Of a stretch of DNA of 64,000 bases, positions 37,586 to 50,401 are shown piece after piece (the first letter of the stretch is position 1; every line of letters begins with the position of its first letter). The stretch comes from the human T2T-CHM13v2.0 reference genome, Homo sapiens. The notes under the pieces are model-generated. The model worked only from the letters and a program-made list of their open reading frames with translations, did not search any database and was not told where the DNA came from. The position numbers were made by a program, and so were the translations under genes. The stretch is taken from NCBI RefSeq assembly GCF_009914755.1, contig NC_060930.1, one strand, 5' to 3'.

Positions 37586-38599
37586 GACCTGCTGTTTGCC
37601 TTTTTACCCTAATTCCCCCCAGGCATCCCTAGATAGGGAAACAAGCCACATCTCTGCCCTCAGCCTGGGACCCTGCTTCCTGATGATACCTGCCCATCCC
37701 TGTTTTTTCTCCATAAACTTGCTGGGAAAGGTGCCCTGGTTCTGTTTCTCTAGAGGCTGTGGTGCCAGACTGGAAACTACCAGTTTCCTGGGCATGTGCC
37801 TTGGTGTCACCGAACAGCCAGATGAGACTTGTCACCAGAAAATGCTTTCCTTTGCTCCTTTATTAAACACACTCATATTGCCAGTACTGGGGATATCCCC
37901 TGAGCAAGGTGTAGGAGAGCAAAAGTAGACAACCAGATAGGAAGAAAACTGAAGTGGAATAAATAGATGCCAGGCACATGAATGGTGCTTTTTTTCATCA
38001 ACCTTGTGACGTTGGAATTATCTCCCATTACTCAAGAAGCTCAGAGAGGACAAGTGGTCTTGACTTATCAGACATGGGCCCCTTTTTTGTTAAAAAAAAA
38101 AAAAAAAATTGGTAATGACCCTTGACTCTTCTGAAGTGAGATCCATTTTCTATATGGATTATAGAAATGCAAAGCCTTAACAATAATATAAAAATACAAG
38201 AAAAGCAGTTTATAAAATAAACGTTCTGTATGTAAATATCAGATATGAGTGTGCTATAAGATGTAAGTCAGGTTGGGCATGGTGGCTCAGGCCTGTAATC
38301 CTAGCACTTTGGGAGGCCGAGGTGGGCGGATCATCTGAGGTCAGTAGTTTGAGATCAGCCTAGCCAACATGGCAAAACACCGTCTCTACTAAAAATACAA
38401 AAATTAGCCGGACATGATGGTGGACACCTGTAATCCCAGCTACTTGGGAGGCCAAGGCAGGAGAGAATTGCTTGAAGCCAGGAGGCACAGGTTGCAGTGA
38501 ACCAAGATCACACCATTACACTCCAGTCTGGGTGACAGAGCAGGACTCTGTCTCAAAAACAAAAACAAAAACAAAGACCAACAGCAACAACAAAAAAAC

Positions 38600-41147
<2,548 letters not shown>

Positions 41148-41199
41148 TATGTGAAATGTGCACATAATGTTTTCTTGTGCTAAGTTCCCCAGCTTTTGA

Positions 41200-48814: not shown

Positions 48815-49004
48815 TAGCTAGGATGGTCTCGATCTCCTGATTTCATGATCTGCCTGCCTCGGCCTCCCAAAGTGCTGGGATTACAGGCGTGAGCCACCGC
48901 ACCTAGCCCACAACAAATTTTAGAGAGTAGGTACTATTGCTGTCCCCATTTTAGGAAACACAGAAGTTGGTTCCAGCCACAAGGAAGTGGCTTCATCCAT
49001 CATC

Positions 49005-49123
49005 AAGAAGTTGATTCCAGCCCACGTGGATGGCTTTGAGGAGTTCAAGACTTTAGTGGAGGAAGTGATGAAAGATGTGGTGGAAATAGCAAGAGAACTA
49101 AAACTGGAGTCTGGAGATGTGAC
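49005..49123 (+). mobile_element. Isolated Tigger1 internal fragment
   Basis: Aligns to 39938-40057; translates KKLIPAHVDGFEEFKTLVEEVMKDVVEIAREL. Confidence 0.85.
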
Positions 49124-49156
49124 AGGCTCCACTTTCAGTTCTCTTGCTATTCCCAC
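49080..49156 (-). ncRNA. MIR3925: microRNA precursor mir-3925 (77-nt hairpin; 5p ~49145-49124, 3p ~49110-49090)
   Basis: gtggaaatagcaagagaactaaaactggag pairs with ctccactttcagttctcttgctattcccac; the - strand reads AAGAGAACUGAAAGUGGAGCCU, which I recall as miR-3925-5p; position downstream of SRSF3 fits. Confidence 0.85.
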
Positions 49157-50401
49157 ATGACCATGGTCCAGGATCCTGAGTTTATGTTCAGGAAATAAGA
49201 CTCAGCGAAAACTTGCAGTCACTTTCATAATCATTAATGCAGAGATTCTCAATAAATTCTTAAGGCTCCACCACGCTCCAACATAAAGTAACACATTCAG
49301 TTTGTTACAGAAATGGTAATAAGGCAACACTATGCAATACTATGTGTACAATGCAGCACTTTGCAGTACCAAAATCCATGCCTACAAAGCACTGCACAAG
49401 AACACATACAAATAAAGGATATAGTAGAATGGCTGCCTGTGGGGTGGGGGCATGGAAATGACAATGGAGTGAGGGGGGAATACATGAAGCAAGAGGTGAC
49501 TAGTCAGGACCAATGATGACAGCCAGCCATCACCTGGGGAATAGGAGGGACTCATCCCACTGCACCTGAGGACTAAAAATAAAATGGAATGGAAACAAGA
49601 CCCTGGGTGAAATCACTCGGCCTGAAATACACTGGCCCTGGGCTCAAAGAGGAAAGGTGGGGACACATCCTGGGCTGCCTCATCAAACCAGGAGCCTGCA
49701 AGAGCATCCCTGTGTGTGTGTGGAGGGGGTGAGGACAAAGGGAGGGTCAACCACACCCAGTTCTGTGAGCTCAAACACCAGACTAAAGGCCACAGGCAGA
49801 CCCTCCAAGGCCTCAGGGAAGGAGTGAAGAGAAAGGCCTGGGTGGTCAGTGTCAGAGGCGGCACAGTCACATGCTGTCATGCCTATTTCACCAAGGTTTA
49901 GCCAAATGCACTATTAGGGTGTCAAGAAAATATGGATATAGGGCAACAATCCTGTGATTGTATGATGACTGTAGGCTTGATCATCATAAGGGTCCTGCCA
50001 TATGCTGGTCCAGTTGGCACACCCACCCATCTCCTGTGCCAGTGGAGTGTGCCTGTGAAACAGCAGTCAGCTCTTCTGGTGGCCCTGAGGATCGGGGTGA
50101 AGGAAGAGTGGATCTTCATTTAGTTAGTTTGCCCCTCTGCAGGAGGAGGGGAGTTGGATACAGACCTCTCCTAACAACCCGCCTGGCTACTGGAACCTTC
50201 CTGAGAAATGTGGTTAACCTCTGGGCGCAGAGCCAGCAGTTCTAGGCTCCCGTCACAAGGGGGCAGGATGGGGAAGAAAACAGGTTCTCAATTCCAGGCC
50301 TTGGACCTGTCAGGTTTGCTGGCAGGGGCAGGAAGGAGGGTGGGGTCGGGAGTGTGTGGTGGTTGATGAGGGATCCAACCATCGTTCCGCAAGAGCGGCT
50401 T

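What the first reader, a model, noticed from the sequence alone, without database searches (positions are those of the whole stretch)
48961..49156. MIR3925 appears to be a fold-back, locally templated copy of the Tigger1 9 kb upstream
Seen: 49005-49123 aligns with 39938-40057 and is directly followed by an inverted copy of its own end (49124-49156), forming the hairpin. A further partial copy (agaagttggttccagcc) sits at 48962. The fragment has no TIRs and interrupts MIR-like sequence. From memory of the consensus (agaactagaattagaagtggag; ccctcatgg), both local copies share a ~6-nt deletion and cccac. Inference: template-switch repair copied the neighbouring element and created a miRNA, rather than independent transposition.
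Basis: partly seen in the sequence, partly recalled or inferred. Interest (0 to 1): 0.7.

Follow-up and report, generated by a model that had tools for sequence, protein, structure and literature searches.

The report
MicroRNA hairpin copied from neighbouring transposon
The hairpin annotated as human microRNA MIR3925 is a short piece of a dead Tigger1 transposon followed by its own mirror image; rare mutations it shares with the Tigger1 copy 9 kb away indicate it was likely pasted in by DNA repair rather than by transposition.

Summary
Observation mostly confirmed. 49005-49123 aligns to the Tigger1 at 39938-40057 (83%), and 49123-49156 is an inverted copy of its own end (34-bp stem, 9-nt loop). 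The neighbour is not the best BLAST match (17th of 39 non-self hits scored), but bit score favours little-diverged copies. The two local copies share 7 derived states; 68 other copies share at most 4, and two copies hand-picked for one marker share 5. Two marker sites occur together in no other Tigger1 matched by a genome-wide pattern. Chance per independent copy is about 1e-6 to 2e-5. The 6-nt deletion alone is weak (4 of 100 listed copies). Against: one copy 12.9 Mb away shares a 5-base cluster and is the fragment's sister in a substitution-only tree; a match of that level is expected among about 2,200 candidates. There are no terminal repeats, and the donor keeps the segment. Best reading: a repair-type templated copy plus fold-back, roughly 22-57 million years old (inferred; no primate genomes available). 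The Tigger1 origin of MIR3925 is published; I found no paper on the local donor or the fold-back. miRNA function untested. New variant of known mechanisms.

The parts
38601..41147 (+). Donor Tigger1: lacks its 5' part, broken by Alu-like insertions, ends in a 3' terminal repeat followed by TA (41148-41149)
   Evidence: family name from Qin 2015 S1 and Tempel 2012 supplement rows for the homologous fragment
39938..40057 (+). Inferred template segment inside the donor; still present, so the fragment is a copy and not a moved piece
48926..48960 (+). Left flank: piece of a high-copy interspersed repeat (MIR by recall)
48962..48993 (+). Partial direct copy of the start of the fragment (16 of 17 identical over 48962-48978, looser to 48993)
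48994..49004 (.). Short filler between the partial and the main copy; only 8-10-nt inverse matches to the donor, at chance level
49005..49123 (+). 119-bp Tigger1 fragment (consensus positions 1634-1758 in Qin 2015 S1); 16 derived states, 7 shared with the donor
49123..49156 (+). Fold-back arm: inverted copy of 49080-49113; carries the same deletion and G>A change and keeps two ancestral bases that the first arm later lost
49080..49156 (-). MIR3925 precursor hairpin, 34-bp stem, 9-nt loop; annotated 5p (49124-49145) lies wholly in the fold-back arm, 3p at 49090-49110
   Evidence: annotation supplied with the finding
49159..49178 (.). Two back-to-back perfect 10-bp palindromes just after the junction; possible further snap-back filler (noticed post hoc, suggestive only)

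Best explanation
MIR3925 is a 119-bp internal Tigger1 piece followed by an inverted copy of its own end, and it likely arose when a broken or stalled DNA end at this spot copied the already inserted Tigger1 9 kb upstream and then folded back on the new strand. Steps. (1) The donor inserted by normal transposition and gathered mutations (3' terminal repeat and TA shown; history inferred). (2) A DNA end at about 48961 used the donor as template, with a short false start (48962-48993), and copied 119 bp (common descent strongly supported by shared derived states; the repair route is inferred). (3) The new 3' end looped back over 9 nt, primed on one C:G pair and copied about 33 nt of itself (inverted copy shown; priming inferred). 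(4) The result has near-canonical pri-miRNA geometry on the minus strand (shown by folding), giving the annotated 5p from the new arm; real processing and targets are untested. Both copies then drifted about 8% each, roughly 36 (22-57) million years at the neutral rate used by Pace 2009 (inferred).
For: 7 of the fragment's 16 derived states are among the donor's 17; at most 4 are shared with any of 68 other de-duplicated copies, most of them picked for similarity to one of the two local copies, and at most 4 in 2,278 pairs among them. Exact patterns genome-wide: derived 3-base cluster 2 matches (both local) vs 346 ancestral; derived T>A 5 matches (2 local) vs 301; both together 6 matches, the 2 local copies and 4 whose printed letters are not Tigger1-like, control 2. 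Tail probability per independent copy 5e-6 and 2e-5, 9e-7 to 5e-6. Chance of a second such segment within 10 kb about 1.4%. Private changes are balanced, 9 vs 10. No terminal repeats; no exact match of 7 nt or more between the two flanks. Two Tigger1 copies 19 kb apart on contig C1 share only 3 rare states over 920 bp, so proximity alone gave no excess in that one control. Arm divergence 6.1% per arm (CI 1.7-15.5) fits 8.0% (4.8-12.5) since copying.
Against: Not reciprocal best hits: donor 17th of 39 non-self hits scored, fragment tied 2nd in reverse; only 40 of about 2,200 candidates were scored each time. L087 (C6:49.3 Mb) shares 5 substitutions in one 6-base cluster and L088 shares 5; FastTree, ignoring indels, makes L087 the sister (0.76) inside a 4-copy group with the donor (0.87). 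Without the 3-base cluster the per-copy probability is only 3e-4, 0.6 expected among 2,228. The fragment has G at one site where the donor has the majority A (G in 16 of 100 listed copies). Frequencies were set by hand and assume independent sites; patterns were designed after seeing the two copies and exact patterns see only part of the family. The right flank does not resume the left repeat, so there is no empty site and junction microhomology is not shown.
Confidence: 0.8

Rival explanations
1. An independent Tigger1 insertion (or a copy of a distant element such as L087) was eroded to 119 bp; the states shared with the neighbour are recurrent mutations; the hairpin came from a later template switch.
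For: Donor is not the best hit; the deletion and the 3-base cluster recur; L087 is sister in the substitution-only tree.
Against: L087 lacks the T>A and A>G markers and has a 9-nt rather than 6-nt deletion; a match of its level is expected about 1-4 times among 2,228 candidates (0.1-0.5 if its deletion is counted), the donor's level 0.002-0.05 times, and the donor is next door.
Confidence: 0.05
2. The donor hopped locally by transposase after gathering mutations, leaving two full copies, and one later lost more than 90% of its length.
For: Explains shared states and proximity; local hopping of Tc1/mariner-type elements is recalled knowledge.
Against: No terminal repeat, TA duplication or other Tigger1 remnant near 49 kb; needs deletions at both ends; about 35-40% of the donor's changes in this segment predate the split.
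Confidence: 0.06
3. A pre-existing independent Tigger1 fragment was homogenised with the neighbour by non-allelic gene conversion.
For: Same orientation, 9 kb apart; would give shared states plus some discordant sites such as the A/G site.
Against: Needs an independent copy within 10 kb (about 1.4%) and a tract covering nearly the whole fragment (shared states span alignment positions 80-176 of 61-186).
Confidence: 0.04
4. The piece was copied from a transcript of the donor by reverse transcription (L1-type or RNA-templated repair).
For: Also yields a dispersed copy with the donor's states; inversions are known in L1 insertions (recalled).
Against: No poly(A) tract visible, no target duplication of 7 nt or more, landing 9 kb from the donor, and the inversion duplicates rather than flips sequence.
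Confidence: 0.05

Closest known systems
Repair-mediated duplications (Pace, Sen, Batzer, Feschotte 2009, PMC2671141; read parts 1-3 of 8 and the methods section on identification; searched supplements)
   Same: Short copy (their mean 162 bp) of nearby DNA, donor retained, filler, no poly(A) tail.
   Different: Distance 9,067 bp is beyond their 5-kb cut-off; the copied DNA is itself a transposon piece, a class their pipeline removed (nested TE insertions; more than two BLAST hits); it carries a fold-back arm. Four coordinate prefixes (hg18 offset recalled) gave 0 hits in their Table S1; 'miRNA' does not occur in their main text.
Template-switch-generated miRNA hairpins (Monttinen, Frilander, Loytynoja 2023, PMC10710096; read parts 1-2 of 6, part 1 of Dataset S1, searched 3 held supplements)
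   Same: One-step inverted copy (34 bp) that makes a whole miRNA-sized stem.
   Different: Here the template for the stem is itself a likely long-range copy. '3925' is absent from the appendix, Dataset S1 and Dataset S3; Dataset S2 could not be read. The paper says multi-switch cases are not captured by its algorithm.
Transposon-derived miRNAs (Qin 2015 PMC4482582, passages and supplement rows; Tempel 2012 PMC3495686, supplement row; review PMC10136691, table row)
   Same: hsa-mir-3925 is already listed as Tigger1-derived, 56% covered.
   Different: Qin files it as Type II pattern I (the rest has lost its TE features); here the uncovered arm is an inverted copy of the covered arm, and a specific donor is identified.

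Membership tests
Repair-mediated duplication (Pace 2009) | Copied segment of at least 50 bp with donor retained | tested here: met
   119 bp; donor segment intact
Repair-mediated duplication (Pace 2009) | Donor within 5 kb | tested here: not met
   9,067 bp apart
Repair-mediated duplication (Pace 2009) | Unique donor by reciprocal BLAST | tested here: not met
   donor singled out only by shared derived states
Repair-mediated duplication (Pace 2009) | Insertion splits an annotated repeat whose halves continue | tested here: inconclusive
   left flank is a repeat; right flank does not resume it with a 6-copy profile
Repair-mediated duplication (Pace 2009) | Filler, microhomology or deletion at junctions; no poly(A) | tested here: inconclusive
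   filler-like pieces and no poly(A); no empty site to define junctions
Template-switch-generated hairpin (Monttinen 2023) | Inverted fragment of 15 nt or more forming the stem | tested here: met
   34 bp, 30 matching
Template-switch-generated hairpin (Monttinen 2023) | Unstructured parent sequence | tested here: met
   proxy only: donor segment folds at -11.0/-22.5 vs -55.6/-53.2 kcal/mol
Template-switch-generated hairpin (Monttinen 2023) | Placement on a parent-child branch by ancestral reconstruction | not testable with these tools
   no primate relatives held
Tigger1 transposition product | Terminal inverted repeats and TA duplication around the fragment | tested here: not met
Canonical miRNA gene | Stem about 35 bp, loop 10 nt or more | tested here: inconclusive
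   34-bp stem, 9-nt loop, 11-bp lower stem below the annotated 5p (preference stated in PMC10710096)
Canonical miRNA gene | 2-nt 3' overhangs of the 5p/3p duplex | tested here: inconclusive
   annotated ends give 2 nt at the loop side and 1 nt at the base
Canonical miRNA gene | Drosha/Dicer-dependent, precisely processed reads; curated status | not testable with these tools
   0 hits for Mir-3925 in the held, truncated ncOrtho table that does list Mir-3909 and Mir-3934; no Rfam family at gathering score

The most novel reading that the evidence does not exclude
One germline repair event in an early anthropoid both captured a transposon piece from 9 kb away and folded it back, building a Microprocessor-sized hairpin from scratch; and many short 'orphan' transposon fragments in the human genome are such repair copies of a neighbour, a class that earlier screens filtered out and that can be counted by shared derived mutations.
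Probability: 0.35. Interest if true: 0.65.

Novelty: new variant of a known kind. Interest (0 to 1): 0.42.

Why it matters
It gives a concrete, traceable birth record for an annotated human miRNA locus: neither the transposon's own palindromes nor two inverted insertions, but capture of a nearby template plus fold-back. It joins two separately described mechanisms (repair-mediated duplication and template-switch hairpins) at a locus I did not find in either screen's held tables. It also shows that best-BLAST-hit logic misassigns donors inside old repeat families, and that some annotated transposon fragments may not be transposition events. The weight is limited: one locus, both mechanisms known, and the miRNA's biological reality is uncertain.

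Tried and rejected
Reciprocal best hit as the test: rejected, because top hits are simply the least diverged copies (8.3 changes vs 12.2 in the unbiased set and 17 in the donor; the fragment scores 153 against the majority sequence and 138 against the donor). The 6-nt deletion as sole marker: recurrent. A subfamily behind the shared states: no strong linkage among common variant sites apart from one neighbouring pair, the donor has no close relative over 920 bp, and the 3 other T>A copies lack the 3-base cluster. Trees: IQ-TREE did not finish; FastTree on 125 columns is weak and gives high support to arbitrary groups. Larger duplication including flanks: only the 119-bp match exists. Right-flank continuation of the left repeat: best 24 of 500 shuffles in 1 of 6 copies; a DNA search with the left flank found only itself. 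Filler origin: chance-level matches. Seed sites in the SRSF3 3' UTR: none for either arm. Rfam: only generic hairpin matches below gathering scores. Transposase homology of the donor was not tested. Rows dropped: of 86 loci, 6 window-derived, 2 partial and 10 duplicates were left out, giving 68. Literature searches (listings seen, 8-40 rows each) showed no paper on a local donor or fold-back for MIR3925; subscription papers, including the primate DNA-transposon dating paper I wanted, are not held.

Full report
Observation. The stretch 49005-49123 aligns with 39938-40057 at 82.8% over 122 columns. Directly after it, 49124-49156 is the reverse complement of 49080-49112 at 29 of 33 positions. Including one closing C:G pair this is a 34-bp stem with a 9-nt loop, exactly the annotated 77-nt precursor and the only hairpin above the scan threshold in the window; z-score -7.0, 0 of 200 shuffles. 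A partial direct copy of the fragment's start sits at 48962 (16 of 17 identical; 0 of 10,000 shuffles and 1 of 1,738 real windows reach its score). The upstream element spans 38601-41147, lacks its 5' part, and ends in a terminal repeat plus TA. The fragment has no terminal repeat and no other Tigger1 remnant nearby. The family name comes from published rows: Qin 2015 lists hsa-mir-3925 with Tigger1 1634-1758 over 119 bases, which itself implies the 6-nt deletion, and Tempel 2012 lists Tigger1. The left flank is part of a high-copy repeat (171 matches vs 0 control; MIR by recall); the right flank was not shown to continue it.

With the fragment as query the neighbour ranks 17th of 39 non-self hits scored (122 bits vs 135 best; 40 of 2,228 candidates scored). 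In reverse the fragment ties for 2nd (40 of 2,167 scored). This test is uninformative in an old family: top hits average 8.3 changes from the majority sequence, unbiased copies 12.2, the donor 17, and the fragment scores higher against the majority (153) than against the donor (138).

Shared derived states. Against the majority of 68 de-duplicated copies (86 loci minus 6 window-derived, 2 partial, 10 duplicates) the fragment has 16 derived states and the donor 17. Seven are shared: a T>A, a three-base cluster, the 6-nt deletion, a G>A and an A>G. No other of the 68 shares more than 4 with the fragment, and none of 2,278 pairs among them shares more than 4; one copy picked as a best hit to the donor shares 5 with the donor. 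Genome-wide exact patterns: derived cluster 2 (both local) vs 346 ancestral; derived T>A 5 (2 local) vs 301; both together 6 matches, the two local copies and four whose printed letters are unlike Tigger1 (control 2). The deletion in the same register is 4 of the first 100 of 439 matches. Treating the cluster as one event, the chance that one independent copy shares as much is 5e-6, or 2e-5 with generous frequencies, and 9e-7 to 5e-6 with frequencies I set by hand. These assume independent sites, and the patterns were designed after seeing the pair.

Results against. A relaxed pattern (60 matches) found two more copies with the full cluster; I read those two, not the other 56 non-local matches. 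L087 (C6:49.3 Mb) shares five substitutions with the fragment within six bases, two of them absent from the donor, and has an overlapping 9-nt deletion; L088 also shares five. A FastTree tree of 72 sequences that ignores indels makes L087 the sister (0.76) within a group of fragment, donor, L087 and L088 (0.87). Matches of L087's level are expected 1-4 times among 2,228 candidates (0.1-0.5 if its deletion is counted), the donor's level 0.002-0.05 times, and only the donor is adjacent (chance of a neighbour within 10 kb about 1.4%). The cluster probably recurs because a T>G change makes a CpG that then decays (inference from the variants listed). Without the cluster the donor's probability is 3e-4, still low for a copy chosen in advance by position. 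I found no subfamily explanation, and one control pair 19 kb apart shows no excess sharing.

Mechanism. Shown: common markers, donor intact, balanced private changes (9 and 10), no transposition hallmarks, no flank-to-flank exact match of 7 nt or more, a partial restart copy, and an inverted arm that carries the deletion and G>A and keeps two ancestral bases lost from the first arm. Inferred: a DNA end invaded the neighbour, restarted once, copied 119 bp, then snapped back over 9 nt and copied about 33 nt of itself. Two adjacent 10-bp palindromes follow the junction; 4 other such pairs occur in 311 kb scanned, so this is suggestive only. The enzyme route (synthesis-dependent annealing, polymerase theta or break-induced template switching) cannot be told apart here. 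Divergence since copying is 8.0% per lineage (CI 4.8-12.5), since fold-back 6.1% per arm (1.7-15.5): compatible with one event, not proof. At 2.2e-9 per year (rate used in PMC2671141) that is about 36 (22-57) million years, uncorrected.

The miRNA. On the minus strand the hairpin has an 11-bp lower stem under the annotated 5p, which lies wholly in the fold-back arm; its seed is unchanged Tigger1 sequence found in 37 of 68 copies, so antisense Tigger1 pieces in transcripts would be natural targets (inferred). Loop length (9) and the basal overhang (1 nt as annotated) are slightly off the ideal. The plus strand folds almost as well. Mir-3925 is absent from the held, truncated part of the ncOrtho ortholog table, so curated status is unresolved. 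The 40 listed of 76 papers naming it are mostly expression or prediction studies by title (listings only).

Comparison. It works like a repair-mediated duplication (PMC2671141) but fails two of that study's operational criteria (5-kb limit, reciprocal BLAST), and transposon-sequence insertions were removed from that screen, so I do not file it as a member. The stem matches the template-switch hairpins of PMC10710096, whose held supplements do not list it (Dataset S2 unreadable) and whose method misses multi-switch cases. Qin 2015 explains the second arm as decayed transposon sequence, which the inverted-copy structure contradicts. Ten literature searches showed nothing on a local donor; subscription papers and unread supplements may.

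Verdict. Real feature; local templated origin about 0.85-0.9 likely, the full repair plus fold-back account 0.8, single event about even, functional miRNA uncertain. New variant of known kinds; interest 0.42.

Noticed in passing
window 39802-40002: The RefSeq silencer in the supplied annotation lies inside the donor Tigger1 and overlaps the first 65 bp of the copied segment.
   Followed up: no
window 38267-38601: The donor's 5' part is missing: homology stops at 38601 at the tail of an Alu-like repeat, and no 5' terminal repeat is found in the window; an Alu-associated deletion is possible.
   Followed up: partly
L010, L020-L024; L066-L068, L078; L032, L034: Groups of Tigger1 copies 96-100% identical on different contigs or places, consistent with segmental duplications.
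   Followed up: no
L028, L063, L010, L035: These copies share 7-15 rare states over 920 bp, and L028 and L010 show a break in alignment at a similar place: likely a Tigger1 subfamily.
   Followed up: no
L087 (G000:C6:49306740-49306940): Tigger1 copy with a 12-nt insertion that partly repeats adjacent sequence and a 5-base cluster identical to the MIR3925 fragment.
   Followed up: partly
window 49263-49274: A 9-nt exact repeat of the start of the fold-back arm about 140 bp downstream; chance level by count.
   Followed up: partly
G000:C1:212.24-212.34 Mb (L002, L019, L080): Three Tigger1 copies within 95 kb that share no excess of rare states; used as a control.
   Followed up: yes
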